Shown here: one piece after another, positions 30,292-64,000 of the stretch
Position numbering within the stretch: the stretch's first letter is position 1
Layout: each line of letters begins with the position of its first letter
From: Antedon mediterranea
Lineage: Eukaryota; Animalia; Echinodermata
Direction: 5' to 3'
Assembly (NCBI RefSeq): GCF_964355755.1
Contig: NC_092674.1
Coordinates: 29,760,001-29,824,000, forward strand
DNA: 64,000 nucleotides
Made by a program: the position numbers and the translations under genes
Notes under the pieces: generated by a model
Told to the model about the DNA's origin: nothing
The model's input: only the letters and a program-made list of their open reading frames with translations
Databases searched by the model: none

Positions 30292-30299
30292 TCTGAAAA

Positions 30300-31212
30300 A
30301 CAAATCAATTTAAAATATTTTAAAAATGACCATGTTTAGCTAGCTCTGCTATTGCTAAGTATAATTAATATTGTTTTCATTAAAAGTCTTCTTGCCAATG
30401 TGATACAATGAATTTTATGCACCACCACACAACTTGCTTAACTAGGCTCTGCCTACCCCGCACCGGGCTAATTAATAAGCAGGTGCCCCACCCATCCAGC
30501 CAGCAGGAGCCGGTTAAAGATAAGTAGTAGGTAGTAGTGCGAAGGATCTAGGCCTAGGCCTAGAAGTTAGGCCTAGGCCTACGCCTAGCATTTTTCTGGT
30601 ATTACTTCAATCAATTAAATAGGTGAAATAAATAAATTAGCAGCTTTAGTATTTTAATATACATATACATTGAATGCTTTCAACGTCAAAGACACCAAAT
30701 TTCATTAATTTAATCCGTTTTTTCGCCGTCGATGGGCGCTTCCATGTTTGTTGTTGTAATGATTTATGAGGGCGTTCTTTGTTTTTTAGTATTGAACTTT
30801 GAACTTGGAACAGGGAATTACCGGTACACGTTGTTTGGTCTCGTTTTCTCTCTCTATATAGTAATAAGACTGATTGTAAGAACATATTTTGGTATTTTTA
30901 TCGGAATGTTAGTTGTTTTTCTGATATTTTATGCAATCAAATATATTATGTGTTAACTAGTCTAAATGTACTTTAATATTATTAACTTTTTGCTAGAGTA
31001 AGCCTCGACTGCTTTCTCTAGCAAGAATGTCATTCCATACTGCACATTCCATCAGTCGATCACTGCAAGAGGTCAGTTCAGTGGGGTGGCTTTCATAATC
31101 CAGCCAGCACAGCCACAGCTATTTCGTGGAAAAGCCTTGCTACTAGGGTTTAGACCGTTTGGCTTTTTACCAATCTGAGATTGATCTTCCATCTAATCTA
31201 CCTACTTTTCAG
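30300..31212. promoter_or_regulatory. Bidirectional promoter / 5' UTR region shared by TBCK and AIMP1
   Basis: Divergent ATGs at 30291 (-) and 31259 (+), about 970 bp apart. Both ATG exons begin with splice acceptors, so both first exons must start in or near this interval. Confidence 0.7.
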
Positions 31213-31258
31213 GTTTTTATTGAGGTCTGCTGCTGCAAGAAGACTGAATCTAAGAAGT

Positions 31259-34200: not shown

Positions 34201-34519
34201 AAAGAAGAACATAGAAAAAAAAAAAAAAAAAGATCCTGACAATAACAAGGGGTTATCCGCCAAGTGCGGATAACCAATAAATAAACTCCACATTCCACTC
34301 CACTCCACTTTCACATTAATTTCACTAATGTTATTTGTGTTTGTTACAGTCGGTGATTTTCCACCTCAAATGAACCCAAAGAAGAAGATCCTGGAACAGA
34401 TTCTGGCAGATCTATTTACAGACGAGAATAAAGTAGCAACTTACAAGGGAGTTCCGTGGAAGGTTGAAGGAAAAGGGATCTGTGTAGCGCCAACGATGGC
34501 CAAGACCAAAATCAAATAA
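31259..34519 (+). CDS. AIMP1: Aminoacyl-tRNA synthetase complex-interacting multifunctional protein 1 (p43/EMAP II), about 295 aa
   Basis: Exons 31259-31364, 31454-31558, 31783-31920, 32026-32228, 32515-32680 and 34350-34519 (888 nt). N-terminal coiled coil RLEQRSREADQLIAQLKQQV. EMAPII OB fold: DLRIGKI, KHPDADSLYVE, PRTVVSGLV, CNLKPAKMRGILSQAMVMCAS, NPKKKI, ATYKGVPW. Confidence 0.96.
32731..32845 (-). mobile_element. tRNA-derived SINE, same family as 115-259
   Basis: Reverse complement aligns with 115-259 (GTAGTGGAGCTG...GGTTCAATCCTGAC...CTCCCTAAG...CAAATGAGACTTAGTTTAT). Confidence 0.75.
32885..34278 (-). mobile_element. Helentron-associated non-autonomous element (HINE/DINE-1-like), about 1.4 kb, in AIMP1 intron 5
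   Basis: On the minus strand the 5' end is the palindrome GGTTATCCGC-ACTTG-GCGGATAACC. The 3' end has subTIR GCGGATAACC, then a perfect 10-bp stem-loop GAACTCGTCA-AAG-TGACGAGTTC, then AAATCTAG-TTTT. T-rich insertion site, no TSD, no transposase ORF. Confidence 0.8.
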
Positions 34520-38887: not shown

Positions 38888-41800
38888 TCAGAGTTTATGA
38901 TCAGCGTCAAAATCCAAGACTAACAGTTTTGTTTCTTCTGTCCCATTTCTGCTCCCTACTGCACAAATGAGTTTTGTGTGATTTGAGCGTACGCGCCATA
39001 CAACGCCGCCACTACCACCACTGTCTAACGTTACAAGGTTGCGAATAAATTCGCCAGTGTTCAAATCCCAGAGTTTCACTGTTCCGTCATCGGAACTCGT
39101 TATGACAAATTTTTTGTTGAATTGTAAACAAGTAACAGCGCTCTGATGTTTATTTTGTCCTGAATAGAAAAACATATATAAAATGATTGAATCAAAGGGG
39201 AAGTACAAGAAAAATACAAATATCTAATTCACTGTTTCTATTGATAAATGACAGTCAAATATGGATATGCCATTCATTTCCAGATGTGTAAAGCTCTGTC
39301 TACACCATCAAACTTTATGCGACAAACAAATGTGATGTGCCAATATATGGACATGATGACATCACTACCATATTTGGGGACATTACACTTTTTTTGTCAA
39401 ACTAGTTTGATAGTGTAGACAGAGCTTAATAAACATTTCCTTCAAAGTAATTTTGTTTTACCTTGTAATGTTTGAAGGCAGCGACCAGTAGTTATATCCC
39501 ATATCTTAACAGTTGAATCAGCATTGCCGGACACTAGTATATTGTCCTTCAGCTCCATGCCACTGGTCAAGGACTGATGACCCATCAGAGTGTGCTTACA
39601 TTCTCCTGACTCAACATCCCATACACGTATTGACGTGTCTAACGAACCACTCACCACATGAATACCGTCAAACTAAAAATAAAATATCAATTAGAATGGA
39701 TCTCCCACGCACCTAGATTAACATGTGGAGTTGTGGCTTGCTGGTTATAATGGCTACCAATCCAAGATTCCTGGGTTCCAGTCCTGTCAGTGTCAGGATT
39801 TTTTTTTCTAATGACAAATTATAACTCAACTCCCAAAGACTTTGTTTATGTAGAGCATCTTGTGTATATGTTTGTCTTGTGAACAGGATTACCACCTTTA
39901 AGAAGGATAGTGAATGAATTCGCTTATGGTTATCTTTGGCAATTTGCCTAAATGTATAAAAACAAAACAGTAGCCAGTGCTACATTTAATGTTTAGTTTT
40001 CTCCTACCTGTAATGAATACACCCTATTTGTATGACCTGAGAGAGTATGTAGACACTCTTCTGTGTCCGGATTCCAAACACGAACCATATAATCATAAGC
40101 ACCACTGACCACACGCCGGCCATCATACTGGACACAACGGACAGCTGCTAAATGACCCATTAGGACATGTAAGCACTGACCAGTCTCAATGTCCCAAACG
40201 CGTAGAGTTGCATCTCTTGAACCACTAACAACTCTGTAAGAAAAACGTTACAAAAAAAATAAAATTGAAATTTATTGAAGATAATATTTGTTTTAAAATA
40301 AGCTCTACAATATTGCTTACGACCTCTGACCTATTGTTACTTACTTGTTACCACTTAGTGACATGCACCGAACCGTTGAAGTGTGACCATATAATGTGTG
40401 GATGCACTGGCCCGTGTCTGCGTTCCATACTTTTAATGTTCTGTCTGTTGAACCACTGATTATAATATTATTGGCCATTTCTGATGACCAAACTCCACCA
40501 GTGTGTCCAACAAGTGTGCGTAAACACTAAGGATAAAGTTTAAAACCATAGTATTTAATACAGTGTAGATATGTTACAATGCGTTAAGTAGCCTAACCAG
40601 TAACCGTAACTCTCACTCACTTAATGTGTCTAGTTTTTAAGTTACTTCATTTTGTAAGTTGTCAGTAATATGTGTAATAGAGCAAGACAATCATATTTAT
40701 ACTTAATTTCTCTGTAAGTAAATGGGAAATGAAACTATTATGTCAATAAATGTACTATTTTGAAACATATTAATATGTTCTATCGGGAAATATTTCATAA
40801 TACAGCACAATGGACCACTACATCACCAGTTTTTTGTTTTCTTCAGTTCTCCTTTAAATTGTATACGGTCAAATAATTGGGCTGGCCAAATATGTCCGGA
40901 AAGTCTGGTATTCAAAATCTGTTTTTAATGGTAAAGAGAAATTTGGAAACTTTTGGACTTCGAGGAAAGTCTGGTAATGGGAGAGTTTCCGGTTTTCAGT
41001 CCAGTATTGGAAGAGTTGACTGTATACGATTTTGCACATTTTGGCCTGGATGCTTCACCTACAGCCAAACCCAGTATAGTTAAGCTGCAAAGGGAATCAA
41101 TGCACCAATTACGGACTAAGTAACTGTTAAATTAAGATAAGATTGTTGACATACCTTGCCTGTGGATGCTGACCATACTTTTAAGGTGTTATCATCAGAA
41201 CCACTCACAATCCTCTGACCATTGAATTGTAAACATGTGATCACATGATCATCGTGACCTTTGAGCACCTGATGAGATAAATGACCTTTGATGTTAATTA
41301 TGGTAAACAAGTAAATAATTGAATATCAAGGTTCTGTGACCCTAAATTTTAGATTTTGCAAAGCTAACTATTTTGTAGCCTTTAATTTTAATGAAATTAA
41401 TATTAATTTAAATAATTGCAGTGTTATTAATAGTACAGTAAACGCTCCTAGAACAACTAACCAGTTTGTCTGTGTCTGGTTCTCTACCCTACTTTATGAA
41501 ATAAATTGGGACTTTTATTTTTGGAGAGTTTCTATTTTTAAGTTCAGACTAATTTCAGGAGATTAAATTAAAACGTAAAGCTTTTAACAGATTGCTATAA
41601 GTTTCCAACTGTTAAATACGAGCTCTGTGTACGGTATACACCATCAAAAAAGTGTGCTCAAATATGGTAGTGATATGCCCAAATATGGTAGTGGTATGAC
41701 ATAGTGTAGACAGAGCTTTATAGTTTAAGGATAGAATTATATATAACTTCAAAGCAGGAAGCAAATTCTCTGTAAATATATTACAATGCCAATTCAAAAT

Positions 41801-44800
41801 GCGACTCCCACAATTGTCTAAATATCTAAAATTGAACCTATCTAAAACATAACCTTGTATTTCTGAATAAAAACAAAAATTGTATGAATAATTCCATAAT
41901 ATACAAAGACTGTAGGATAAAATACAAGCCACTTAACAAGGAATAGCCTACTTTGATTAGCTAAATGGAATTCATAATGGGTGAATATAAATTGCCATAT
42001 TAACATTAGTTAAGGCATACACCACTACTAACCTTTTTTGGACGAATTTCTGCAAACCGCCAGTTGTACTCAATCTGATGATGTCTAAGGTACGCGCTCT
42101 TCCACGGACTTCTTGGCACACCCGAGTTTGACCGCCTCCTCGTCTGTTTACCATTGACTTCAGCAATACCAGCTTCCCGACATTTTTCGCGCCATAATAG
42201 GTTGTCTTCGCAGAGAATACGCCAATACTGGCAAGTTTGTGCAGCACGTAACAGATCTCTAGGTTCAAGGAAGGCTAGTACATATAGTGCGAGCTACAGA
42301 TAAACAAAAATAATTTACAAATTAATATAAGACAGTTATTTGTGTTGTTTCTAATAAACATTTATTATAGGATGTAATTATCATAAATAAAGACAAAATA
42401 AGAACAATATTTACTAAAGATTTCATAAGGTTATGGGAAATTCAAATATTATACCATTGTTATCATTTCCTACCTACAGTATTTATTAAGTCAATATAGC
42501 TGAGATACTAAATTATATGCTGTGTACTTTCAGGACTTGTAACAATGGGGAAATCCCCTGATATGCTTCACTGATTCCCTGGCATAAACCTTATATTACA
42601 CATTCAACATTCAGTTGACTAAACTTGAAGGTGAATCACGTTTCAGTTCATATGTACTTTAGGGTTTCACTTTTAGTGACAAATATATTCTACTTTAATA
42701 TTTAAATATAATTCAAGCCATTATCAAATACTGTAGATTTGTGTATGAATAGAAGTACAGAAATAATTGTACATGAGTAATTCAATTCACTTGTATACTG
42801 TAATCATTGAAAGCTTTCCCTTACATTGATAAATTTGTATTTTATATTGGTCCAAAATCAACATAGTCACTAAGCACAGACTGCTAATGACAAAATATGT
42901 AACAATTTCCTAACAATAACATACACATTGTTAATTACCATAGGTTTAAATAAAGGATTAATACAACATTTGTAGGCCTACAGTTTGTTGACAGTAGATC
43001 ATTATTGGAAAATGTGAATAAATTAAATACTTCCTCAAAATTTATTATGCAATAATCTATCATGTTGTGTTTCAATATTATTCATTTCCTTTTCTACTTG
43101 GTCTTTCTAAAGCTCTATCCACACTATCAAATTTTATCGGACAAAAACATGTGATGTGCCCATATCATGATGATGTCACTACCATCTTTGGGCATATCAC
43201 TACCATATTTAGAAACATCACACTTTATTTGTCAAACTAGTTTTATAGTGTAGACAGAGCTTAATTGTTTATCAAAGATTCACCAGATAAACAATATAAA
43301 ACACGAATTTCAAAATAGAGACAGGGTGTACGTACATTCCAACATTATATTGTAGAACTAAACATTGCAAAGTAGGTCGTCCAATCTGACCTTTTTCCCA
43401 GTAAATATCTAATTTCCATAGGAACAGTAGATACTCAAAAACTAATTACAATTGTCTATATGTTACGACAAACATATTGACTATAGTATCAGGTTGCTCA
43501 GAGCTTGGTTAGTTTGATTTTTGTTTTCTAAAGATCATAGGGTGAACGCAAAGGTCAATTATTGCCTTGTTGCAGAATTATAATTGTATGTTTACTATTC
43601 ACTCACAATCTCTTCTTCTCTAAATTCTAGACTTCCTACAGTAACTATTGTACAGTAAGGTTTATTAAAATATTCCATGTTATAATTGTCATGTACAATA
43701 TACAATATACAGTAGGAAGGGTTTGTCAAAATATTTTTGTATGTTTTAACAACAAATCTGATTGCATAATTTAATTTAATACATTTTTATTTATACAGAA
43801 ATGTCTTCCCATTATCCTTTTCACATGAATGGATTTTACACACACTGTTCATAGCATTTATTTACATACACAGTACTCTGATATAAAAGATAACATACAA
43901 AGCATTCTCATACAACATTCTCACCCCTGAGGACATAAAAGATGATAACATACAAAGCATTCTCATACAACATTCTCACCCCTGAGGACATAAAAGATGA
44001 TAACATACAAAGCATTCTCATACAACATTCTCACCCCTGAGGACGATCAACGCATATTGATCAAAACGTTGAGAAACTCAACAGTTCTTTTCAGAACTAA
44101 TATAGTGGTGTACCGCAAACTTTACAGTATATCAAGCAATAACAAAATAATATGAGGTCAGAGTTTGAAGGCAGATGCACTGGAAGAAGATGAAAAAAAA
44201 AACATCTTGTGCTGCACTGTGACAATCCCTATCTGTTGGAAGGTTATTTCTCATCATATTGTACACTTGTGTGGGATACATGTAAACATTTATAATCAGT
44301 CAAAATAAAGTTGTTTTTGTGTGCACAGTATTGAACCTACATACTGTAATCTAAACAAGTGAAAAGGATCATAAACAACATAATATTATTTACATTATAT
44401 GATAACAGAGAGAATATAAGATGATGTATGCAACCTTTGTCATAGCTAGATTTATTATTACATAACCGTTAGTAGTACCTAATGTTTGAATTAATTTTAA
44501 TTAATTTTTTAGTTGTTTAAATCAACTACTAGAAGTCAAATTATGTAAAAAATCTAAATAAACACACTAAACAATTTCACCAATTACTTTGTATATAACC
44601 ACCTTCCCCTCAAGTTTTCCTCTTTATCACTTTCTCTACTTGACTGGTGTATTTTTTTTTTTTTTTTCATATTTTTTTACTGATTTCCGTTTTTGCTTAA
44701 AACTGTGTGTGTACACTTTATACGACAATTGAGAAAGTTAATAAGCTTGTGCTATTCCATACTTTATATGTTTTACTATGTGTTTTGTTGCTGACTATAC

Positions 44801-47800
44801 CACTTGTTTCTTAGGACTTGTCTACACTACTGTATCAAACTTTATGTGACAACAAAATGTGCCCATATAAGGACATGATGGTGTCATATCACTACCATAT
44901 TTGGACATATCACTACCATATTTGGACATATCACTACCATATTTGGATATATCACTACCATATTTAGGCACATTACACTCAAACTGGTTTGATATTGTAG
45001 ACAGAGCTTAATAGAGTAAGACTAAGAGAGCTTCGATGATGAAAACCAAGAAAACTGTACTCTGTGGGTTTACAGTAAGTGCCTACTCAGGGTTTAAGAT
45101 TCAAGGCTAACTGATGATGTCATACTTAAAAGTACTGTACTGTGCTAAAAAAATTCTTGGTTGTTCATAATATTTATTCCACTATACTTTAGGAAACAAT
45201 GACATCCTTATTATTATCACCTTCAACTTTATTGGATGTTCAAGAGTATGAATAGGATTTAGATAGATAAGATATTTCAAACGGTCATTGTATATTTCAA
45301 TTAATAACCAATTTATGCTACTATAAATGGATAGCAATACCTTTTACCTATTGTATGGCATTCATTGAACTATTCATGAATACTGGGGAATCTCTTTTGC
45401 CACCCCTTAGTGTGATGTACCCAATTATGGTAGTGGTGATATGCCCAAATATGGTAGTGATGTGACCTCATCATGTCCATATATGGGTACATCACATGTT
45501 TATATCACATACAGTTTTAAAGTGTGGACAGAGCTTTAGTAAACTACAAATGTTGCTGCTGTTTCTTTTGCCAAAATTATTATTTTTTTTGCAAAAATAC
45601 AATAACAACAAATACTGTAAACATACACACACAGAAAGACTAATCAAATTTTTTGACGACCTCCTTGGTGCAGGAAGTGAAAATAGATTTGTATTTATGC
45701 TTATTTTTAGACATATTTTTGGGAAATTTGCAATGCATAAATTATGATATTAGTAATATTTAATGTCAAGTCTACCCCAGTGTTTGACAGGGCTAAACTA
45801 TTTCCCCCCCCCCCCCAAAAATCTTTATAAAAACTCATTTCCTGCATTCCAACGTTCATTGTTGTAAGGTGACATGCTTAGTAGACTCACCAGGAAATTT
45901 GTTTCATAATTTAATCTATTGTATAGCGTATATTATTATATCTTTTGAACGCTGTCAAGGTGAGAAGTTTCAAAGAAGAATATCTTTTGTCACCATTTAA
46001 TTGTGAAATTTTAGTCAAATTTTTTTAGTACTAAACTAAGGCTGACCCTGTGTCAGTTAGTACCTTTTCAGACCATACTTTAGTACCGGTTAACCAGAAT
46101 GACCTCGGGTCTAAAGGACTAAACAGCTTTCATTTATTCCTGATTCTAATAACATTTTTAGGAATTTCTTGTTCTTGAGATTTATGTTAGCGTAAAGCTC
46201 TGTCTACACTATCACTTTATCTTACAAAAAAATGTAATATGCCCATGGACAAATATATCACACATACAGTACACTACCATATTTGGGCACATCACACTTT
46301 TTTTATCTATTTAATTTGATAGTGTAGACAGAGCTTTACTGTATTAAGTACTACCAACTCTAAATAATTACCATATTATACTATGGTAGTTGTATAACCG
46401 GTTTTATATTAATATGTATACATTTTAAATTGAAATTGTTTATGGCATGCTGATCTATGTTTATACATACAGTCGACCTTCTCATTTACGTACCCCTTGG
46501 TCTGAGAGGCGTTTCGTAAATGAAAAAGTTCGTAAATGAGAAGATTGGGAAAAAAGTGCCCTCTATTAAAATCAGTGGTTAAAAACATGTCCAAACAAAT
46601 GCCCTATGTAAAACTTACTGTGCAGCATAGTACAGTAAAAGAACAAACAGTATTAAAAATACAGTTATAAAACAATTAAATTTAACATGTAAATTAACAC
46701 CTTAACTGGCAAAAAGATTGATATTTCTGCTTTTTGTTATGTTACACACATTCTCTGTACCAAAATTCCATCGTTTACTTTTATTATTGCATATTTTGAT
46801 ACCAACTGTGATTTACGAATTTGTTCTTGAAGTAATAATATCAAATCCGTTGTGGACCGCAAATATTTACATTTTTAAGCTACTATGTACTGTATGTGTG
46901 GTGTGTGTGGCCGGACAGCAAGTAAAATGGAATTCCCAGAAAAATGGCTACGCGACAACTGACAACAAAGTTTTAAAATATTAATAAATAAGGGTCAAGT
47001 GTTTTTTTATATCGTAAAAACATGCACAAGCCAAACTAAATTTATAGTATGGTCATCGTAGCTAGCCTTTCTGCAGTTCGCGATCAACCTTTGGTTTTTT
47101 CAAAACATGTGCAGGGTGCTCTCCATGCACTCCAGCAGTGGGGATGATGATCTCCTGACCACTAGCTTAGGCCTAGACTAAACGGCCTAGGCCTAGCTAA
47201 ACGGCCTAGACAACTTTTAAACTAGAAATAAATCGTGGATCGTTTTTAATAAGCTTTGCTTTAGTTATGAAGTAATTGTTTTGGGATAGTTTAATAAATT
47301 AAGAAGATAATAAATTTGTAGGTTACTTTAGGTACGTAAAAGTTTTATTATATTACTGATGACGTCATCGTTCGAACGGCGTTCGTAAAATAGAAGGTTC
47401 GTAATTGAGAAGTATGTAAATGAGAAGGTCGACTGTATATATATTTATATCTGTAATTTATTGTCAACAGTGGTATTGTTTTTATGTTTCAAACCTGTTA
47501 GTGGCGGTAATTATCGCTGTCAGTTTTGATTGAAAAATAAAAATAAAGTAAAATCGACGTCACAAAAATCATGGCACTCCATCAGAATATAAGCGACAAA
47601 AAGAACATATTCTTACCTCTCGGGGTAGTAATGATATAAAATCTCTTTGGAATTGGGGTTCAATGACCGCCATTATGTGGCGTACTTGCGATGGTTCACA
47701 TTTGCCGATTAACTCATCTAGAGCAACAAGTTTCTCTGCACCGCTCCAATTCTGCAAAGCAAAAAAGATGTGTTCAAATGGTTTTTATAGTTAGCGTAAT

Positions 47801-50399
47801 CAGGAGTGAAGAACTGACCATATTTTTTTAAATTTCTGCGAGCCCATTATACTGTATCAGAATTCATGTGTAAAGCTCTGTCTACACTATCAAACTTTAT
47901 GTGACACAAAATTTGGTAGGCTCATATATGGACATGATGATGACATATCACTACCATATTTGGGCATCACTACCATATTTGGGCACATCACACATTTTTT
48001 TTGTCAAACTAGTTTCGATACTTTACACTCAGCTTTATTGGTTCACATGTATTTTTTGTATAGTATTTTATGTCTTTAGCTCGACGATCTAAATATTCTC
48101 GTAACAAACTCGTAAAATATAATACCTGAAATATCTTCAACCAGTTAAGTAGATCAGGTGGTGGGTTGAAATGCGAGGATGACATAAAGCGCCTCCTTGT
48201 AGGACCGTCCAAACTTGATCCACCAAATCGCAAAGCGCTCGGCGTGTATCCATTTTCCAGTGCCCTAAGAAATGCACTGCAATTTAAAAAAAAACATAAT
48301 AATAATAATAAATATTTTTTTTTTCATTTCAGTTATTTATTTTCCATAATAATAAGATACTGATTTCATATCAAACGATTCAGAATTTCAAATATGCAAC
48401 GTGTTTGGACTAATTTTATAAATCATATAATTGTGGTTTTTAATAATAAAGTACTGTATGCCTCATACAAATTTCAATTTATGAACCATTTTATACAGTT
48501 TTACTACTTTCCTATAGTATTTCATTTTAATGATTATAGCTACAGAATCAATTTCAAGTGAAAATGTCCCCTGACGATGGAGGATGTCAAGAAAAATATG
48601 TAGTCTGCTATAAAGTTAGTTATCTAGTGATTCCCATATGATTATGATCTACCATATGCAGCAATGGATTAAAAATAACATTGCTTGGATATAAGATAGG
48701 AATTAGATTTATTGATTACAGTATTTCATATTTTTTCTCATGATTATGTTTGCTGCAGAGAATAATGTTACGACAATTTTTTTTTGACAACATTTCATTT
48801 AGTGAAGTCACTTTACATAGTAATGTAGTATTGCTTTGCAGATGATAAAAAAATGATACTATACAGTAAATAATGTTGGTGTGTTGGTTGGTCAGTAGGG
48901 ACATCCACCTTCTATTGTACCTTACGTTTTCCATTCCACCCAGTCTTAAGATTTTTTCAAGCCTTCTACCTTTATTATAGCACCCACTAAAACAACTCTA
49001 GAATCTAGGTACTGAAATATTCTTTTTTTCCGACCCACCCTTTTTAACACATTCCTAGACATTCACTAGGGCTAAATGTAAATCTCTATGAACATGAAAC
49101 TAACCCACATATTCCTAGATATTCACTCTAGCTAACCGTACATCTCTATGGACATACTGTAGACTAACACACTTTTCTAACATTCACTCTATAGTAGCTA
49201 ACTGTACATCTCTATGGACATGGGACAGCATATTCCAACTCTAGGTGAACACAGCAACCCATTAGAAGAAGGTTAAAGGTCAGTTTCCAAACTATCTGGT
49301 TATTTTTATAACTCCTAAGCGGATATATTAAACGCTGAATGAGGCTCTTAAAGGAGTTTTTTTCTCAAGAAATTCTTTGGTGGGGTGATTTTAGATTGTG
49401 AAGAATTTATTTTCCCAGGCAACCAAATATTTTAGGATTATGCAAAGTCTCAGAAAGGTGTAAAAAATTGAAAATGAATATTGTAAACTCTTTGCACAGC
49501 ATGAATTTATGAATATCAGACAGCTTGCTTCCAAATGTATCTCCCACTTATGGTTGATTTAAATAATGAATGTATTTTCTGTTTTGCACTGTTTGTTAGC
49601 AGCCAGCGGAAATTATGCAAACATCATTCTCTAAGGGTGCAAAAATCATTCTCATGCGTGTTTGTGGCACACTTAGTGTGAACTGTTTAAATGTCCATAA
49701 TGTTGTAGCAATAGTAAGCCATTAACTTAAACAAATGTTTACTGTACATCCTGCAATTAAGCATTATAACAACAAACACTCCATTACATCTGAACATACT
49801 GAATACCAGTAGCTAGCTATAATATTAATACAGTATGCTGACACTCTCCTAAAAATCATGGATTTTTCTTGATATGCATCAATAAAGTTCTGTCTAGTTT
49901 GCGTGGCGTGCCCAAATATGGTAGTGATATACCCAAATATGGTATGGTCAATTCACATTTTGTCACTTAAAGTTTGATAGTGTAGACAGAGCTTAAAGCT
50001 CTACACTATAAAAGTTTGTGACAAAAATTTGATGTGCCCCTTATGGACAGGATGATGTCATATCACTACTATATTTGGTCACATCACTACCATATTTGGG
50101 CACACCATACAGTATGTTTTTTGTCAAACTATTTTGATAGTGTTGACAGGCTTAAAGGTACAAGTTCTCCTCTTTTTTTAAATGTACAGATTTAAGCCCT
50201 ATACAGTAACTACTAGGCCCTAAATAAAGGGGAGATCAGTGAGCACAGGGCTACAGTACATAGGAAAGCTACATCATAACTTATATGATTTTGAAAAAAA
50301 AAACAAAGATTAAGTCTCTTACTTTTGTATCTCAGCTGAACGACATGGCTTCTTGCCTGGAGATCCCCCTTTTTCTTTAATTTCTGATTTCCGTTTCAT
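38888..50399 (-). CDS. FBXW7: F-box/WD repeat protein 7, common region (dimerisation domain, F-box, WD40 repeats)
   Basis: Exons 50399-50323 ([20 protein letters not shown]; human common exon recalled as MKRKLDHG..GKKPCK), 48276-48126, 47751-47617 ([31 protein letters not shown]), 42293-42033 ([21 protein letters not shown]), 41268-41155 ([15 protein letters not shown]), 40526-40345, 40233-40008, 39672-39462 and 39159-38888 ([27 protein letters not shown]). The phosphodegron-binding arginines in STVRCM, SGSRDAT and AAVRCV are present. Confidence 0.97.
39732..39920 (+). mobile_element. Probable degenerate tRNA-derived SINE
   Basis: A-box-like TGGCTTGCTGG and B-box-like GGTTCCAGTCC at tRNA-like spacing, inside an FBXW7 intron. 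Confidence 0.4.
43883..44044. repeat. 55-bp tandem repeat, 3 copies
   Basis: Unit ATAAAAGATGATAACATACAAAGCATTCTCATACAACATTCTCACCCCTGAGGAC. Confidence 0.9.
46470..47435. mobile_element. Non-autonomous pogo/Tigger-like DNA transposon, 966 bp
   Basis: Perfect 20-bp TIRs CAGTCGACCTTCTCATTTAC flanked by a TA duplication. Subterminal TTCGTAAATGA repeats at both ends; no transposase ORF. Confidence 0.88.
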
Positions 50400-53300
50400 C
50401 TGAAAGAAAAACCATCATTGATATATAAGACAGGTAAATGATAAGACGTCGTTACAATGTCACTGTCAATACATGTTATAATAAAACGCTAACAATCACT
50501 GACATTCTATTGCAAAAATGTGACAATCACAAATCACCATACAAAACCGTAAAAAAACGTTAAGAAATTAGGAAATCCAAAAACACTGTCTGAGTAGTAC
50601 ATACTAAGTGCATGGATATGATTAATATTTACTGTATTTATTTCTCCTTTCAATAACTATTTTATTACTTTCTTTTGTTAAAAATATTTCAATTTTGTTT
50701 TCAGATTTTTCGTTTTTCAGATCAGTTATTTTCAGATCAGTTACAAAATTTACCAACTAGATTAATAATAGACCAACATGAACAATTTTAAAGAGTGAAA
50801 ACTCAGTGTGCAGAGTTGCTTGAGAAGTTTATCAAATACCTTTTAATATCGATATTATAATTCCTGTAAACATTTCAAGCCATACTTGTCCTAAAATACA
50901 TTTTCACAGTGAATAATTTGATTTTTCTCACCCAGTTATTAGGGGAACAAGTCATATAGCCTTGAACTGTGTGAGTTCTACTCCATGGAGACATACAATG
51001 ATTTGATTTTACGAAAAATACTCGATGGTACTACAGTAATATAGTCAAGTAACTAACTGTAACTCAGCTTAGAAATACTGTATAAGCAATTCTACGATTT
51101 TAAATATATTAATTCCTTCTTTCTCCCCAATTAATAATTAAATTTATAACTAATTACATACATACATACAGGTAATGCAAGACTGGTTTTTCTTTTCATT
51201 GCAAAATGTATGATAAAGATCTATCAAATTAGTTTGACAAAAAAAGTGTGATGTTTTTAAAGCATACTTTTATTCCATCGATGTTATGCACATGTATAGA
51301 TATAGTGCCTTTTTAACTACTCTATTGAATTTTATTGTTTTATATTTTTACAAAAATGTATGTATACTATATAATATATATTTGTAAAAGGAATGAATAA
51401 ATGTGGGTGACCCCCACGAAAGAGAAAAAAAAAAGTGTGATGTGCCCATATATGGATTGGTAGTGATATGTTTAAATTTTGGCAGTGATATGACAACATC
51501 ATGTCCATATATGGTCACATCACATTTTGTTGTCACATAAAGTTTGATAGTGTAAACAGAGCTTAACATGTCATACTGTTTATTATCCAACAATGCAATG
51601 AAGAATGGATTTATACTTTAGTATAATTGTAGTAAGTCATTTTTTGTCATTTCAAACTAATGTTACTTTACTGCAAATTGTAAATTGAGCACAAAAAAAA
51701 AGAAGTCAACAAGAGAGTCAAGGCAAGATCTTTAAATTTCCTTTAAAGTATGTTCTGTGAAAGTAAGACTAGTTGTGTCTGTCCATGGGGTCTTTAGCAG
51801 ATGTGGAAAGATGAGTGTTAAGTTGTCATGTCACCAAATGCCCCGGATGTATCTTACTTCCTTCAAATTACAAATGTGAACACACACTTAATTGCCAATA
51901 GCAGTGAAGACTATCAGTAAGCATACTGTAGACTAGTAGTAGGACAATGCACCTTGCTAAGGAGTTTATGTACTTTATTCTAATTTTACAGATTTTTCTA
52001 AAACCGAAATAGACAATTTTAAGAAAATGTTTTGTAATTTATTGTTTTAATATTTTGTTGAATTGTAAGAACTTTTTGTTCACTTAGGGACAAAGATTAA
52101 GCTTTTTTTTTAGCCTTGTTTTTCAATTATAATATTTTTATGTTAACTATTTATTAGTATTCATGATTTTCTGAAGTTACACAAAACAATATGTTTAAGA
52201 TTGCATAATAAATTAAGCTCAACTATAAAAACAGTAGAGTATACAATACTGTACAACATTACATTTTATAACTATACTATTTTATTATTATTATTCTATC
52301 TATATTTTATGTAAATAAATACATACACCTATTAAACAATAAAATAAAAATATTAAATGAAAGGAGCATAATCGGATAAAAATTCAAATCAAATTTAATC
52401 AATCAAAATTTATTTATGATCCTGTACATGTACAATAAAGTCAGTTTTAATGATCTCACCAATTATCTAATAAAAGTTACCAATTTCATGGTTATTTGAT
52501 AGTTTCCTAGCAATTTGGTTTATAACTCAATTTAAACATCGCATGAAGGCTTATGTTGGCCTACTGTAGTAGATATACAGTAAAATGTAATTATGTTAAA
52601 TGGCATTGGCATCTAACCCATACATTCCACAGGGTTATTTTGGGTTAAAACTAGACCTCCTTGACGAGTGTAAAATTATTAAAAATCTGTGGCAAGTAAA
52701 ATTAATATTAAAACTGAAGTTATGATGTTGACCTCTAACCTACTCTCTACCAAAATGTTCTTTGATAAGGTTAAGAAACAAAAGAGGCCTTTGTTCTAAG
52801 CTACTTCTAATTCCTTAGCTTGGCTCCTATCAAACAATGCCTACAAACAAAGGCAGTGGGGAGTGTTGCTTGAAAATCTACCCAACAAAGGTTGTGTATT
52901 AAAACCAAACCCACCAAATGTATTTTATTAACAAAAATCAGAGACAGACTTTGTGGGGTTTAAAGGAGAGTGTAGATACTATACTTCATACATTGATTCT
53001 CATCAGGTTGAGATTTAAGGTCAAAAGGGTCATGAGAAAATTGTGAACAATAAGAACAGTATTGGAAAAGACTCAAGTTTTCACCCTTATGAGTCAAAGG
53101 TTAAAGTAGATGCTTAAAATCTTGCATTTCACACACAAATTGACCAGTATTAGGAATAAACAGTAAAATTCCTTTTTAAGGGACACCTCTGAGAGTCGAG
53201 ACAGAATAAAGTGTCCTAAGAGAAAATTCCCTGAATTGAGATCTCAAAGCAGGACTTCTGTGCTAATGGTTTAAAAACATCCCTAAATTTTGACTTAAGT

Positions 53301-53651: not shown

Positions 53652-56600
53652 CTTGCTCCTTGTCTCGCATCCATCCACTTCACTACCGGATGATGCGGAC
53701 TGACGCATCGATACATCCTTGTGATTTGCAGGAGAACTCTTCTGCTCAGATGGAGTATAACTTCGTAAAGTTGATAGCCTCGTCGTTAATATAGACTGTT
53801 TATTATTAACCATATTTGACACATTGTTTGTCGTAGCACTGTGCCTGCGAGACGTGCTATGTGAACGTCCATTTTGAGGTGGGGGACGTTCTCGTTTAAA
53901 TGTTCCACATGTTAAGATAATTTTATTTAGTTCCAGCACACTGTTCCCTATTCCTGGTACTTTGGTTAAATCATAAATACTTTTATATCCATTTAGACTC
54001 TAAAAAAAAAAAAAAATAACAGAATTAGTATCATAGGTATTAATAGATCATGTCAGAAAAGCTTACATTTCATAACCTAAACCTCAGCATTTATAACTAA
54101 TTATTTAAGCACATACTGATACCAAATGTTATATCATAATACTACTACAGTCAACTCTCCCAATACCAGACTCTCTGAAAAACATTTCTTGTGGACTCCT
54201 AAATTTCTTTTATACCATTAAAAACCCATTAAGGATACCACACTTTCCGCAAAACCAGACATATTTTGCCGCCTCAATGTCCAGTATAGGGAAAGTTGAC
54301 TGTACAGGTACCACATAGATAGATACTACATAGAAGTTCCCACCAAAACTTTGTCGGCAGACTATCAATTTTAGGGTATAATTTCAAAAAGGTGTACTGA
54401 TTGCAGTAAATTAAAAGCATTTAAATCTATTCTCACAAAACTTTAGTGCCTTAACCAAATTTTTATTTCCTTGAACTTCTGAATGCTTAAACAAACCTAG
54501 GAAAGCAAATAATTCAAGTACAATACTCTTTTCTAGACATTAATACACAAACTACTATAAAACCTATTGACCCGATATCACAAAAAGACTTGAGAAAGAA
54601 GATTTACCCAACGACCTACATTTTGAATGTCGTTAAGTTCGCTAAATAAACTCAGACAGGTAATCCAACGATTGATTCCTTTTACTTCCAATCAGTTGCA
54701 TAATTAAACATTAACAATATAGAATATTATATTATTATTATTATATTACAGTCAACCTTCCCTAAATCAGACAAGTGTTAATGGCCAAATGTCTGGTTTT
54801 CAGATTATCTCAATTGGAAGACTGATGTTACAATATGAATTGCACAATGGGGCTTGCCATATTTATTTAGTAGGCTGGTCATAAATTTGTTTTTTGCTAA
54901 ATTTATAATATGAATGTAACAATCATGTATTTGTGCTTGAAGGGGGGTCGCTGTTTATCGCTTTTGCTCACACAATTGCAACTCTAGACTATATTATTAT
55001 TTAAGTACAGTAATTGTAAGATGTTGTATGAAAGACGGTTTTGCAATAATTTTGGAAATACTACTGTACTCTCTGTAGCCTACAGTACTTGTTTCCTTAT
55101 TTAATCTAAACTTGAAATTGTTTATTCTTTCTAGGGTTGCCATTGTTACCTAGGTACAGTTATTGAAAATTGGAGCAAAGGTCATTGACATTTTAGATAG
55201 GAGGTCATCAATACCTTTATTTAAACTCTTTAGAAATATGACCAGGACACAACTGTTTGGAAGAATATTAAGCGGTCCTTCATAATTTATTATATAGAGT
55301 AGAGTACATACAGACACTTTTGTTATATTGATCATAGAGTACATATAGTACAGACACTGTTGTTATAGAGTACATACAGTACAGACACTGTTGTTACAGT
55401 ATAACATTCAATCAAAGATTGTTTACCATGTACAGTACAGAAAATCCTTTCAAAAAAGATTCAGTATCAATACAGTCAACTCTCTTTATAAAAACAAGAC
55501 TTTTCTCGAGGTCTATAAAAAGGTCCCAAAATAATTTTTAACCATTAAAAACACATTCAAAATACTGCACAGCTACTGTGGAATACTTTCTGGAAAACCC
55601 AACCATATTAGGCTAGCCCAAAGGTGTCCGGTATTGGGGAGTTGATAAATACTTTTAATAGTTTCAACTGTGGTAATCTGGTTACCTTATTATATATAGG
55701 GCAAAAGTGAATCTAATTGTATTCAACAAGGACTATGAGTAAATACAGTAGTAAACCTCAAATTACCTCTATTATAACCACAGGCTATACATGTAGGAAA
55801 ACCATTGGATATCAAGGATACATATAAAAAATAATAAATAAATAAGGCCAAGAAATAATATTTAGTCATCAAATATATAGGAACCCTATCAACATCATCC
55901 CTTTCAGAAACCACAATACCTATAGTGTTTGTATGTCCTTGAAGAAAGCATCATATCCTATCCTGTTTAGCCACTAAACCCAGTACTGTTGTATACTGTA
56001 CTTTGTATTATTACATTTTCCCAAGCACTAAACTACAGGTATAAATAATATGGTGGTAAACTATATTATCACATGGAGTAATATTACTCCATGCTTATCC
56101 CAACAAAGTACCTACTGTACGGTATTCATTCATGACTGTTTTCCCTATAATAACTTTGTTTTCTAATGTACAATGCTTACTGTACAAACATATTCAATAA
56201 AAAGCTTGTTTTACAGTAAATATCTGCACTTTAACAACACCATAATATTCTTATATTTTGTCTCCAAGTAGGAATACTTTAGCAAACTCTGTACCGTGAT
56301 TCTTTATAACCTCACACTATTGTATGTGTCATGAAAGGTTACAGACAAATCTGTACAACTTCAATTTTTTCAAATTAAAAATCATAGTTTTTAATTGGCT
56401 GCCAACGAGCTACTATTGTCTTATACTGGTAATTATTAAGGAAGATTACAAACAGGAAACAAACCATATAACTAATACTGTTGATATGTCTGAAAGTAAT
56501 TTACGCTTTAATTACTCAATAGAATATTTACACAATATTAATCGACTCAAGGTACAATTTTTTTTAAATACAAACAAGGACATTATATAATAGATGATGT

Positions 56601-57133
56601 TGGAATATTTGTGCTTCATTTGATGCAGGACAATTCATTCTGAGCATGCTCACAAACACATTGAGAGCATACGAAGAATTAGTGTTTTTACTGTGTCGTG
56701 TTTTCTTGAATTCATAACACAGCAATACAAACAAACAGCACAAAAACACATTGTGACGAGCAATGTGTTCTTGGTAAAATGTAACTGTTAAGCTTTTATA
56801 AGCAAAATTATAAATAATCTCATTTTTTTGGCCAAATTAAATAAGCTGATTTAAAAATAAAACTAGAAGTATTTCTATATTTACACGCCTTGAGTACTGT
56901 ATGTGCGCTATATAAATCTAAATTATTATTCCTATTCAAAGTTGGATTTTATTCATCAGTTTTTATATTTTGGAATGGAAGACAAACAACATGTTTTAAT
57001 AATATGCATGAAATATTAGAAAGCCTACAATTCTTGTTTCCAGTATAGCTTCCGCTCTTGACCGTCCAACACCGACCAATCTGGACAAGGTATCTACAGA
57101 AGCTGTGTTTATATCAATCAGCCTTGTCACCAT
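53652..57133 (-). CDS. FBXW7: Two upstream coding exons encoding a ComEA-like (HhH)2 domain plus a Ser/Thr/Arg-rich linker; predicted N-terminus of FBXW7 (full product about 693 aa)
   Basis: Exon 57133-57029: MVTRLIDINTASVDTLSRLVGVGRSRAEAILETRI (AAAATGG start, upstream in-frame stop, donor GTAGGC). Exon 53999-53652: SLNGYKSIYDLTKVPGIGNSVLELNKIILTC...CETRSK (long T-tract acceptor, donor AAG|GTAGGA). Both joins and the join to the 50399 acceptor are phase 0. Confidence 0.75.
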
Positions 57134-57922
57134 TTTGCATATTCCTCAATCCTATAAAAGGACATCTGAAAAAAATATGAAAACATTTTTATAAAACAAA
57201 ATTTTCAGACTGTATTTCTTAATCCTGCAATAGGAATTAGACGTTTGGAAAAACCAGATGAAAAATAAAAGAATAAAAATTTATGAAATAAAACGTGATG
57301 AATTATTATTGATGTCATACTTGACAACACTAATCTCAAGCATGTCTGGTATTTTTCACTGTACATTGTAATTTTAAAAAGTCAACGATTAGGAAATCAA
57401 AGAAAAGGAACAGTAATAATTATGAAATATTCAAGTATTATTTCATTTAATTCAAGAAGATCACTGTTGTCTAGATATGAATGAAATAGAGTGTTTTAAA
57501 GCAATGTTTGCAGTACAAACTGTTTTGTAAACAAAACATGAACATTCAATCATCCATACTTTTGAATTGAAGTTTGTATCGAATAAAATCAATCAGTCAT
57601 TATCAACAACTCCATCTGAACGCGACCATCAACAATTCAAGTCAAGACTGGTTTGAAAAAAAAACAACGATAGGTGACTAGGATAGGATTTCGTAAAACG
57701 ATCTCTCTGTTCTGTTTGAATTGTGTGCGGAGTGTATGTAGAGAGACACTGGACCCCACCGACATCGCCAGCCCTTTCTTCGTCCGTACAACGTAGGCCT
57801 ATCTCGCTTCGTTGACACAACTTTAATTTAGGTAATTTTCATACTTTAGTTGCTTAAATATTGTAGTAAAAATGTTCAGATAATAACAATTTATTGTCTG
57901 AGAACTAATCTGAGTTACTTAC

Positions 57923-61471: not shown

Positions 61472-63803
61472 TTAGAGAAGAAGCAATGCACCACAGGAGG
61501 CGCATGTCACAGCGTCGTCTGAATTACTGACAGAACATGATGGACAAAGATTCTCACACGGCGATAACGACCTCCGTGTTCTCCACACTCTATCCTGTCT
61601 GGCTGCCATCGCACTTGCTTTGATAGTCTGCTCTTTAGCTGGGTTTTTCCCGCCAACTGCTTGTGAAGATTCTGTGTGCGAACTGATACTACTATTAGAG
61701 CTGCTGGAACAAACCTTCTGTTTGGCATGACCTCCTTCGCTAGATTTCGCCGTCTTTCTTTGGTTACTGGTCTTCTCCGAGACGTGGTTTCTCGTTGAGG
61801 TTTGAGTGCGATCACTTCCTGTATGACCTGAGCTTTCTCCTGAACCGTCAGATCGAGGTTCATCCGATGATTGCTGTTGAGGTCTAGAACGCGAGTTACA
61901 TTTGGAACATGCGTGATTGCGATGGCAGGAATGAGAGTTACCTGCGCAACGACTACATCTGTAGCTGGTTTCTGATGACAGAAGAGCACGGAGAACGTCT
62001 GGACTGTTATGGGTGGCTTCTACACTCTCTTCTTGATTCGGAACACCGTCGGTTGGTGATTGCTGCGAGCTACCAGCCAAATAAACAAAACTGTGACCTT
62101 GAGGGCGTTTGTAACATCGTCTTGCACTTGCAGATTCTGCAACACAATCTCGACAAAACACTCGTGAACATTTCTTGCATTTGACAAAGAATGTACTACT
62201 TTTGGTGGCACAGTTGAAGACTGAACACTTAAGTTCCCTTGTGTACCTAAGATGAAACAAAATTGAAATTTAATTAGGTGCTTAAGTTGAAAATTAAGAT
62301 TACGGATTACTACCTGCATCCTGTGAAACCAATTTAATGCACATGTGTTTCAAAGGTCAATAAGCTAACTAAAATCATATTTTTTATATTCAATCATTCT
62401 ACATGCAAACATAGTTGTACAGGGGTGTTGAGGAAAAGCCATTTTGTGACATGCTAAAGCTCTGTCTACACTATCAAACTAGTTTGACAAAAAAAGTGTG
62501 ATGTGCCCAAATATGGTAGTGCTATGACATCATCATGTCCATATATAGGCACATCACATTTTGTTATCACATCAAGTTTTATTGTGTGGACAGAGCTTTA
62601 ACCAACCCCCATCATCTTCTGTAAAATTTTCTACACATAATTTTCATCAATATTTCAACAGTGAAAGCAACTACTAACCCAGAGGATGACTTTTGACTGT
62701 GTTGGTGACACCGCCTCCTTACTGGCGACACTTCTTCTGAGGTGGACTGAGCTGTTGCGCCCTCTGTTTGATTACCTAAATAAAGTCAACAATTAAATAT
62801 TTTTAGCGATTGCTAAATAAAAATAAATAAAAAACACATTTTTCTAAAATTCAGAAAATTTCAATTGAACTGATCAATTCAATCAATCAAATATGGTAGT
62901 GATATCACATCATCATGTCCATATATGGGCACATTAATTTTTTTTTTTTAACATAAAGTTTGACAGAGCTTTAAATGAGTAAAACAATTTTGGACTGTAC
63001 CATTATTTGCAGGGTTATCCTGCATGACAGACAGAATTTCCCTTGCTGAAAGTGAAACAGTTGTGCCAGCATCTCTATTGCTCTGGCCAGCCCAGTTGCC
63101 AGCATTCGGCCAAGCCGATCGTAGCGGCAGCTCAATCTCCATATCACTAATGTCACTGAGGTCAGGACTCTCTGTGGTTGATGAATTGTTTTCGCGGGCT
63201 GCTACCGAAAACGGAAGAGGCATGTATGGGTAGGAGCGTCGATCTACCAGAATAAAAAAATTGTTGGTGTTATCGCAAAAATATATTGGGTGTAAGCATA
63301 TAAATTTCTCCTCTATGAATATGTAATGTAACAATTGAATTGTGATCTGAGAGCTTCAAAAGAGCTAAAATTGTTTATGTTATTTTTACTTGTGTGTCTG
63401 CCGCCTTTTGTTTTGATTTTCTTTGCAACACCCTGCATGGCTAATGGTTTATATCTCATTTACATACTCATGAATTTAACACGAATACCCTAAAAACTTT
63501 TACATAAAATTACCTCTTATAGTGCAGTGGCGCAAGAAAGGGTGACATCCCAAATTTCTTCCCCCTTCCTCTATTGCTAGTGCTTCCCTCAGTTGGCTCC
63601 CTCTAAGACTAGTTGACCGCGAATGCATTGCACGTTGTGTAGTTCTGGTTGTTGAGGCTACCGTTGTTGATGTGGTTGTTGCAGCATTTGATGACTGACC
63701 AGTAGTTGTAGGTCTTGCTACCTCCTCTGTTCTAGTGCTATCAACATTCGTGTCATCATTCTCCAAGACCATCACATCTTCTGGTTGTATACTTCTTCGA
63801 GAT
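61472..63803 (-). CDS. 3' exons of a probable SPATA2/Tamo-like zinc-finger protein (5' part outside the window)
   Basis: Exons 63803-63514, 63243-63001, 62775-62679 and 62246-61472, phase-consistent. CSVFNC..CKKCSRVFCRDCV..CYKRPQGHSF resembles the C-terminal finger of human SPATA2 as I recall it (CTQCSKVSCDACL..CYKKSELHKF). Terminal zinc ribbon CPSCSVSN..CASC. The N-terminal PUB domain is not visible. Confidence 0.6.
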
Positions 63804-64000
63804 CTTAACAAAAAACGGAAATAACATTTAAAATTCAACCGATATCTTTACTATATTATCTCCTGCTACATTTCATTTTATTTTCATTTCCATTTCATCA
63901 ATTCACTTCCAGCCCATTTTACAATAAAAAATCTTGTTCATTTTCGGACATGCAGAAGCGTCTTTATTAAATGATTTAGCTAAATATAATGCAAAAAATA

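What the first reader, a model, noticed from the sequence alone, without database searches (positions are those of the whole stretch)
53652..57133. FBXW7 appears fused to an N-terminal ComEA-like tandem helix-hairpin-helix DNA-binding domain
Seen: two exons join to give MVTRLIDINTASVDTLSRLVGVGRSRAEAILETRI|SLNGYKSIYDLTKVPGIGNSVLELNKIILTC. The ORF track misses the first exon and only partly shows the second. The peptide follows the ComEA/HHH_3 pattern (ININTAS-EEL--LPGIG---A-AII-YR---G-FKS-EDL--V-GIG---LE) with both GhG hairpins (GVG, GIG). After about 85 aa of low-complexity linker it splices in phase 0 to the MKRK exon, with no other gene in between. Established: vertebrate FBXW7 alpha/beta/gamma differ only in first exons joined to this MKRK exon, which set localisation, and none has an HhH domain. 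(HhH)2 folds bind DNA non-specifically (ComEA, EEPD1, KIF22/Kid). Inference: this is an SCF substrate receptor that tethers itself to DNA, which could suit chromatin-bound substrates (Myc, Notch-ICD, Jun) or DNA breaks. I know of no described HhH-F-box-WD40 architecture but cannot exclude one in automated annotations.
Basis: partly seen in the sequence, partly recalled or inferred. Interest (0 to 1): 0.92.

Follow-up and report, generated by a model that had tools for sequence, protein, structure and literature searches.

The report
FBXW7's forgotten DNA-binding head
The feather-star version of the tumour-suppressor ubiquitin-ligase adaptor FBXW7 begins with a helix-hairpin-helix domain predicted to grip DNA; many invertebrates and a little-noticed vertebrate sister gene share this form, and the ordinary vertebrate gene likely keeps a relic of it just ahead of its start codon.

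Summary
Eleven GT-AG exons give a 693-aa protein identical to Antedon mediterranea XP_071951593.1: ComEA-type (HhH)2 (HHH_3, E 4.5e-14), disordered linker, D-domain, F-box, WD40. A contig from a probable RNA run stops at both ends of exon 2, and its length matches splicing onward into the F-box exon. The head is not a crinoid novelty: of the 120 FBXW7 relatives listed, 38 carry it, from all five echinoderm classes, a hemichordate, amphioxus, a nemertean and a second jawed-vertebrate clade beside RRP8 (sharks, amphibians, reptiles, birds; no mammal seen). Locust and scorpion lack it. None of 72 canonical FBXW7 rows has it whole, but the 23 codons before the alpha Met plus the first residues align gap-free with hairpin 2, at the same exon offset, with the hairpin glycines lost; a published table gives this human leader a coding-like signature. 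ComEA's essential DNA-binding lysine is kept (R26); DNA binding itself is untested.

The parts
57029..57133 (-). Coding exon 1, aa 1-35: first HhH motif (GVG hairpin, R26, R34)
   Evidence: (HHH_3 5-34, E 1.5e-8)
53652..53999 (-). Coding exon 2, aa 36-151: second HhH motif (GIG hairpin, to C66) and start of the disordered linker; counterpart of the vertebrate FBXW7 alpha exon (inferred)
   Evidence: (X1 contig 5 aligns exactly here)
50323..50399 (-). Exon 3, aa 152-177: the MKRK exon common to all vertebrate isoforms
48126..48276 (-). Exon 4, aa 177-227: end of linker, start of the dimerisation (D) region
47617..47751 (-). Exon 5, aa 228-272: D region and start of the F-box
42033..42293 (-). 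Exon 6, aa 273-359: F-box and linker helix
   Evidence: (F-box-like E 4.8e-12)
41155..41268 (-). Exon 7, WD40 propeller
40345..40526 (-). Exon 8, WD40 propeller (degron arginine R450)
40008..40233 (-). Exon 9, WD40 propeller (degron arginines R464, R490)
39462..39672 (-). Exon 10, WD40 propeller
38888..39159 (-). Exon 11, end of WD40 and stop codon
   Evidence: (X1 contig 1)

Best explanation
This is the crinoid FBXW7 gene, whose spliced product carries a ComEA-type tandem helix-hairpin-helix domain on a long disordered tether ahead of the D-domain, F-box and WD40 propeller, and the domain likely binds the DNA backbone without sequence preference and so would hold the SCF ligase near chromatin. 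Shown: exon structure, domain, fold match, conservation, intact phosphodegron arginines. Inferred: the form is ancestral to protostomes and deuterostomes; D-domain dimerisation would present two weak DNA-binding heads, and a tether of about 145 residues would let the propeller reach DNA-bound phosphorylated substrates (Myc, Jun, Notch-ICD type) or proteins at breaks. Inferred history: after a duplication in early vertebrates one copy (beside RRP8) kept the head; canonical FBXW7 lost the hairpin-1 exon and its alpha start codon arose inside the last helix of hairpin 2, leaving 23 constrained codons in today's leader; arthropods lost the head separately.
For: Splicing: X1 contig 5 (845 nt) = 30 nt + exon 2 + 467 nt, and 467 = 77+151+135+104, ending at CDS 920; contig 1 starts at CDS 922; the one base between (42189) is a third codon position, and a contig of run X3 also begins at 42190. 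Unnamed Logan proteins on 2.5-5.6 kb contigs hold head and propeller in one ORF in a sea-urchin-clade row, six rows of the Holothuria cluster, a row grouping with Lineus and rows of the chicken cluster. Range: 38 of 120 listed relatives have the whole head (16 invertebrate, 22 vertebrate paralogue rows), 0 of 72 canonical rows. Selection: identity to Antedon over aa 4-66 is 44-60% in non-crinoid invertebrates and 38-48% in the vertebrate paralogue, against 4-17% in the linker. Fold: pLDDT 84.5, best Foldseek hit ComEA 8dss (TM 0.79, 1.4 A); profile hits ComEA, EEPD1, KIF22. R26 aligns to the lysine that by spacing is B. subtilis K164 and V. cholerae K63, each needed for DNA binding (PMC9747964, PMC3879209), and is R or K in 14 of 14 aligned heads. 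Tree: two jawed-vertebrate clades, 100/99 each. Relic: in 15 of 15 protein-by-profile tests the in-register window is the best of 141-282 windows and at most 10 of 10,000 shuffles reach it; human FBXW7 is among 60 genes with positive PhyloCSF upstream of the AUG (25 codons, score 52; supplement of PMC9789052).
Against: No binding experiment exists. The ComEA hairpin-2 lysine K193 is non-basic in 10 of 10 invertebrate heads, K197 is L59, K199 is basic in 5 of 14, and 7 of the 14 heads carry no net positive charge; the vertebrate paralogue has GIT, not GIG, in hairpin 2. EEPD1's two (HhH)2 domains alone do not bind DNA stably (PMC12988330). The same fold occurs in photosystem II PsbU, not known to me as a DNA binder. 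X1 is only guessed to be RNA and the joints were not displayed; they are deduced from contig lengths. The relic's profile-profile probability is only 28% (E 6e-4). Range rests on the best 120 of 970 hits; no cnidarian, sponge, mollusc, annelid, lamprey or monotreme was examined by name.
Confidence: 0.68

Rival explanations
1. The head is real and ancient but works as a protein-, RNA- or poly(ADP-ribose)-binding module, or as a folded cap that controls localisation or self-ubiquitination, rather than as a DNA tether.
For: Few basic residues at hairpin 2 and near-neutral charge in invertebrates; invariant N60 and C66 are family-specific; the fold is also used by PsbU and TEFM, and XPF/ERCC1 use related HhH domains to dimerise (PMC12988330 passage); the relic half, which has lost its hairpin glycines, is still almost invariant from pike to mammals, so part of the constraint is not about DNA.
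Against: Hairpin 1 GhG, R/K26 and R34 are kept in 14 of 14; the vertebrate paralogue has an even more basic hairpin 1 (RRR/RKR, K+R 12-15).
Confidence: 0.2
2. The head binds DNA but its job is narrow: recruitment to breaks or stalled forks for repair signalling, not general access to chromatin-bound transcription factors.
For: Human FBXW7 goes to damage sites through WD40-PAR binding, is retained through its alpha N-terminus (S26) and ubiquitinates XRCC4 (PMC6486556 passages); EEPD1, a close animal relative of the domain, protects reversed forks (PMC12988330).
Against: ComEA-type domains bind plain dsDNA; nothing in the sequence points to end or fork preference.
Confidence: 0.1
3. The HhH exons are a separate small gene or a mis-joined gene model.
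For: Gene models in birds and a lizard do join the paralogue to its neighbour RRP8 (P0025, P0033, P0045, P0085), so wrong joins occur near this family.
Against: Same architecture in 38 proteins across four phyla, in short unnamed contigs with a single ORF, and in run X1.
Confidence: 0.02

Closest known systems
FBXW7 / Fbw7 / Archipelago / SEL-10 / Cdc4 (SCF phosphodegron receptor)
   Same: MKRK exon, D region, F-box, WD40 propeller 89% identical to canonical vertebrate FBXW7 over aa 360-688, three degron arginines at the human spacing.
   Different: Folded (HhH)2 head in place of the wholly disordered alpha N-terminus described for human FBXW7 (PMC5574586 passage); published domain maps list only D, F-box and WD40 (PMC12475580 passage).
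ComEA DNA receptor (Pfam HHH_3)
   Same: Same two-hairpin fold (TM 0.79, 1.4 A to 8dss), same length, key lysine position kept.
   Different: Intracellular and fused to a ubiquitin-ligase adaptor; lacks most hairpin-2 lysines; split by a phase-0 intron.
EEPD1 and KIF22 (HhH)2 domains
   Same: Animal proteins with the same domain on flexible tethers; EEPD1 domain 1 scores 53 bits against 57-58 for ComEA, KIF22 33. EEPD1 also needs dimerisation for DNA binding (PMC12988330).
   Different: One domain per chain; partner is F-box/WD40. Whether the head came from an EEPD1-like animal gene or elsewhere is unresolved.
DDB2 in CRL4 (a cullin-ligase receptor that binds DNA)
   Same: Precedent for a substrate receptor that holds its ligase on DNA (PMC6486556 passage).
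   Different: DDB2 uses the propeller itself on damaged DNA; here a separate non-specific domain would do it and leave the propeller free for phosphodegrons.

Membership tests
FBXW7 (SCF-Fbw7 receptor) | F-box followed by WD40 propeller | tested here: met
FBXW7 (SCF-Fbw7 receptor) | Orthology: groups with FBXW7 of other animals | tested here: met
   (no non-FBXW7 outgroup in the tree; 85-92% WD40 identity)
FBXW7 (SCF-Fbw7 receptor) | Three phosphodegron-binding arginines (human R465/R479/R505, numbers recalled) | tested here: met
   R450, R464, R490, same motifs as canonical P0035
FBXW7 (SCF-Fbw7 receptor) | D (dimerisation) domain before the F-box | tested here: met
   three helices at 219-256; 74-95% identity over aa 216-312; dimerisation itself not tested
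FBXW7 (SCF-Fbw7 receptor) | Ubiquitinates phosphorylated substrates with Skp1-Cul1 | not testable with these tools
   needs biochemistry
ComEA-type (HhH)2 domain (HHH_3) | Profile match above the curated cut-off | tested here: met
   52.7 and 54.8 bits against 27 for P0001, P0002
ComEA-type (HhH)2 domain (HHH_3) | Two GhG hairpins in the ComEA fold | tested here: met
   GVG 21-23, GIG 51-53
ComEA-type (HhH)2 domain (HHH_3) | Essential basic residue after hairpin 1 | tested here: met
   R26, R/K in 14 of 14
ComEA-type (HhH)2 domain (HHH_3) | Basic residues after hairpin 2 (B. subtilis K193, K197, K199) | tested here: inconclusive
   S55, L59, K61 in Antedon; K193A and K197A have only 2-4-fold effects in B. 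subtilis
ComEA-type (HhH)2 domain (HHH_3) | Non-specific dsDNA binding | not testable with these tools
   needs EMSA or similar
Vertebrate whole-genome-duplication pair (FBXW7 and the RRP8-linked paralogue) | Duplication before the shark/bony-vertebrate split | tested here: met
   both clades hold cartilaginous fish and tetrapods, 100/99 each
Vertebrate whole-genome-duplication pair (FBXW7 and the RRP8-linked paralogue) | Both copies lie in paralogous chromosome blocks | not testable with these tools
   no vertebrate genomes held; human 4q31.3/11p15.4 paralogy (DCHS2/1, TRIM2/3, ARFIP1/2) is recalled

The most novel reading that the evidence does not exclude
The ancestral animal Fbw7 ligase was a DNA-anchored E3. 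Non-mammalian jawed vertebrates still run such an enzyme under a gene that annotation hides as 'FBXW7-like' or 'RRP8 isoform', mammals lost it, and the leader of the human tumour suppressor FBXW7-alpha encodes a translated remnant of the domain, read from a non-AUG start or from a conserved cysteine-rich upstream exon, which makes an unrecognised longer isoform whose extension has a new function.
Probability: 0.4. Interest if true: 0.92.

Novelty: new variant of a known kind. Interest (0 to 1): 0.8.

Why it matters
FBXW7 is one of the most studied tumour suppressors and its main substrates act on chromatin, yet it is described as having no folded DNA-binding part. A DNA-binding head conserved from nemerteans to birds gives a direct test of whether ligase tethering to DNA shapes turnover of Myc, Jun or Notch-ICD, with natural plus/minus pairs in one genome (chicken, amphibians, sharks). 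It offers an origin for the alpha start codon and an explanation for the coding-like signal in the human FBXW7 leader, and it warns that chicken and other non-mammalian 'FBXW7' records can be the other gene.

Tried and rejected
No whole genome is held for this window, so copy number and other HhH genes in the species were not checked. The run search listed no holder on record as RNA; X2, X3 and X5 cover introns and show no splicing, and the joint table was filled by a repeat, so no junction row for the gene was shown. A word-index search with aa 1-70 found only the two crinoids among 34 candidates: too insensitive, and overturned. The search of 1.84 billion representatives with the head profile returned multi-HhH proteins in its best 150, none with an FBXW7 core: no use for range or origin. 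The Atlas gave FBXW7 clusters and bacterial ComEA-like clusters and did not show which carry both parts. A relic of hairpin 1 upstream of the canonical alpha exon: 0 of 24 distinct upstream peptides scored positive in register (best -4.9; best anywhere 1.4, against 79-85 for true heads); a look-alike in lizard row P0065 was rejected. dN/dS was not run: no second DNA sequence. Scan notes: 0 by words, 5 unrelated bacterial WD40 notes by sequence. Recent transfer from bacteria was considered and not supported: intron inside the domain, wide animal range, and EEPD1 scores close to ComEA.

Full report
Observation. Exon 1 matches the first half of Pfam HHH_3 (E 1.5e-8) and exon 2 the second half weakly (E 0.22). 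Exon 2 retrieves two proteins among 154 candidates: P0001, 100% identical (Antedon mediterranea, XP_071951593.1), and P0002 from Anneissia japonica, both 693 aa and named only 'FBXW7-like'. A script found an 11-exon GT-AG chain that gives P0001 letter for letter. HHH_3 scores 52.7 and 54.8 bits on the two proteins, cut-off 27. The nearest upstream gene ends near 61470, so nothing else claims these exons.

Is it spliced on to the F-box? Five runs hold the stretch, none on record as RNA; four were laid. X2, X3 and X5 run through introns. X1 (a guessed RNA run) has an 845-nt contig that aligns to exactly 53652-53999 at its positions 468-815. The 30 letters on one side fit the end of exon 1, where a second X1 contig from intron 1 also stops 30 letters in. 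The 467 letters on the other side equal exons 3, 4 and 5 plus 104 nt of the F-box exon and end at CDS 920. The X1 contig from the last exon, counted back, starts at CDS 922. The one base left, 42189, is a third codon position, and an X3 contig also begins at 42190. This is what a spliced transcript broken at a silent polymorphism would give. The joints themselves were not displayed, so this is a deduction from lengths. X1 also has intronic contigs at depth 4-10, against 25-26 for the two spliced ones.

Range. A search with aa 150-400 found 970 proteins at E<=1e-20 and listed 120. With a head profile and a core classification: 16 of 19 invertebrate rows have the whole head (Antedon, Anneissia, Amphiura, Lytechinus, Strongylocentrotus, Asterias, Patiria, Acanthaster, Apostichopus, Glandiceps, Branchiostoma twice, Lineus, three unnamed Logan rows). 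The three without are a Priapulus model that starts at MKRK and two Logan rows whose clusters hold locust and scorpion proteins. A second vertebrate group has 22 rows with the whole head, 4 with its second half joined to RRP8 sequence and 3 short models without it. None of 72 canonical rows has the whole head. A tree of 59 of the 120 rows (from MKRK onward, or the last 545 aa) gives two jawed-vertebrate clades, each 100/99 and each with cartilaginous fish and tetrapods; deeper nodes are weaker and there is no outgroup. No mammal or teleost row fell in the second clade; that human has one FBXW7 is recalled. Chicken members of that clade are named plain 'FBXW7' and many bird members 'RRP8 isoform'. 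Presence in a nemertean and in deuterostomes places the head in their common ancestor (inference). Logan rows on 2.5-5.6 kb contigs carry head and propeller in one ORF, which for a gene with this many introns means spliced RNA (inference).

Selection and fold. Identity to Antedon over aa 4-66 is 79% in Anneissia, 44-60% in the other invertebrates and 38-48% in the vertebrate paralogue; over the linker it is 63% and 4-17% (35 rows). AlphaFold2 folds the head at pLDDT 84.5; Foldseek ranks ComEA first (8dss, TM 0.79, 1.4 A), then a Thermus ComEA-like protein, Tex, PsbU and KIF22. The full model has a confident head, disorder over 74-217, then D region, F-box and propeller. By sequence the closest solved domains are ComEA (57.7, 56.6 bits) and EEPD1 domain 1 (53.2), so origin is open. 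In that alignment R26 faces the lysine whose spacing to three later lysines (29, 33, 35) identifies it as B. subtilis K164; K164A nearly abolishes transformation and the Geobacillus equivalent loses DNA binding, whereas K193A and K197A cost 2-4-fold (PMC9747964, passages). V. cholerae K63 and R71 sit at the same offsets from the hairpin as R26 and R34 (PMC3879209, passages). R/K26, G21, G23 and R34 are kept in 14 of 14 aligned heads. Against: position 55 (K193) is non-basic in all 10 invertebrates, 7 of 14 heads have no net positive charge, and EEPD1's (HhH)2 pair alone does not bind DNA stably but needs the dimer (PMC12988330, passages). FBXW7 dimerises through its D region (PMC1802738, abstract in the listing), which would supply the same avidity.

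The relic. Forty-eight canonical rows are extended upstream of the alpha Met. Thirty different 8-mers precede one nearly invariant 23-residue segment, which marks an exon start 23 codons before the Met. Crinoid exon 2 starts 23 codons before L59, and the RRP8-joined models of the paralogue switch at the same residue. The segment plus the first nine alpha residues aligns without gaps to hairpin 2: for 5 proteins and 3 profiles, including an invertebrate-only one, it is the best of 141-282 windows every time and 0-10 of 10,000 shuffles reach its score; hhalign gives E 6e-4 but probability only 28%. The hairpin glycines are gone, so it should not bind DNA. No trace of hairpin 1 was found in 24 upstream peptides. 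One upstream peptide, cysteine-rich, recurs from sawfish and pike to lizards, birds, bats and sheep and would supply an in-frame AUG. The human alpha leader is treated as non-coding (PMC3498124, passages), yet FBXW7 is in the 60-gene PhyloSET table of PMC9789052 (25 codons, PhyloCSF 52, ribosome-profiling and proteomics cells empty; one supplement row; not named in the main text; 2 of its files were not searched).

Mechanism. Shown: structure of the gene, the domain, its conservation. Inferred: weak non-specific DNA binding through hairpin 1, doubled by dimerisation, with a long tether that lets the propeller catch phosphorylated DNA-bound substrates. Human FBXW7 reaches damage sites by other means, WD40-PAR binding and S26 phosphorylation (PMC6486556, passages), which may be what replaced the head. 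I put 0.68 on the DNA tether, 0.2 on a non-DNA role, 0.1 on a repair-only role and 0.02 on artefact.

In print? Ten searches of the held library. FBXW7 with helix-hairpin-helix gave one unrelated paper (listing only); F-box, WD40, HhH, SCF and domain architecture together gave none. Passages of PMC12475580, PMC10970066, PMC2446394, PMC12045569 and PMC5574586 showed no such domain or paralogue; PMC9178385 has no mention of the gene and the searched supplements of PMC3105428 none. Subscription journals are mostly missing from the library. The architecture is visible in precomputed Pfam hits on RefSeq proteins, so it is catalogued by machines but, as far as these searches reach, undescribed.

Verdict. 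Real feature; new variant of a known kind; interest 0.8, carried by the wide conservation, the overlooked vertebrate paralogue and the relic in the canonical gene, and held back by the lack of any binding test.

Noticed in passing
window 4677-13146, minus strand: A three-exon animal type I polyketide synthase (KS, AT, DH, KR, C-terminal thioesterase; about 2,500 aa); a candidate for crinoid pigment synthesis (recalled link, untested).
   Followed up: partly
window 300-2268 (+), 19324-30309 (-), 31147-34519 (+): Exons of a methyltransferase gene (GSTCD-like), a kinase/TBC gene (TBCK-like) and a tRNA-binding gene (AIMP1-like), the last two head to head. The human genes are neighbours on 4q24, the same arm as FBXW7 (names and synteny recalled).
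   Followed up: partly
proteins P0026, P0054, P0067, P0107, P0115, P0119: A cysteine-rich alternative first exon of canonical FBXW7, conserved from cartilaginous fish to mammals and spliced in frame to the alpha exon; it looks like a palmitoylation signal and would make a fourth, longer isoform.
   Followed up: partly
proteins P0018, P0023, P0070, P0102: The vertebrate paralogue has a second conserved motif just before MKRK (aromatic run, then ERWIDY-like), absent from the canonical and invertebrate rows shown.
   Followed up: no
window 57118-57140, minus strand: An out-of-frame ATG 7 nt upstream of the start codon opens a short overlapping ORF; several AG acceptors lie at 57150-57230, so a non-coding first exon further upstream is likely.
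   Followed up: no
window 61472-63847, minus strand: 3' exons of an upstream gene ending in a RanBP-type zinc ribbon (weak Pfam hits); not part of FBXW7.
   Followed up: no
window 58-59 kb: Two tRNA-Ala(TGC) genes on the plus strand upstream of FBXW7.
   Followed up: no
window 39300-39430, 47870-48010, 51430-51570 and others: A short, very high-copy interspersed repeat fills several introns and dominates the depth tables.
   Followed up: no
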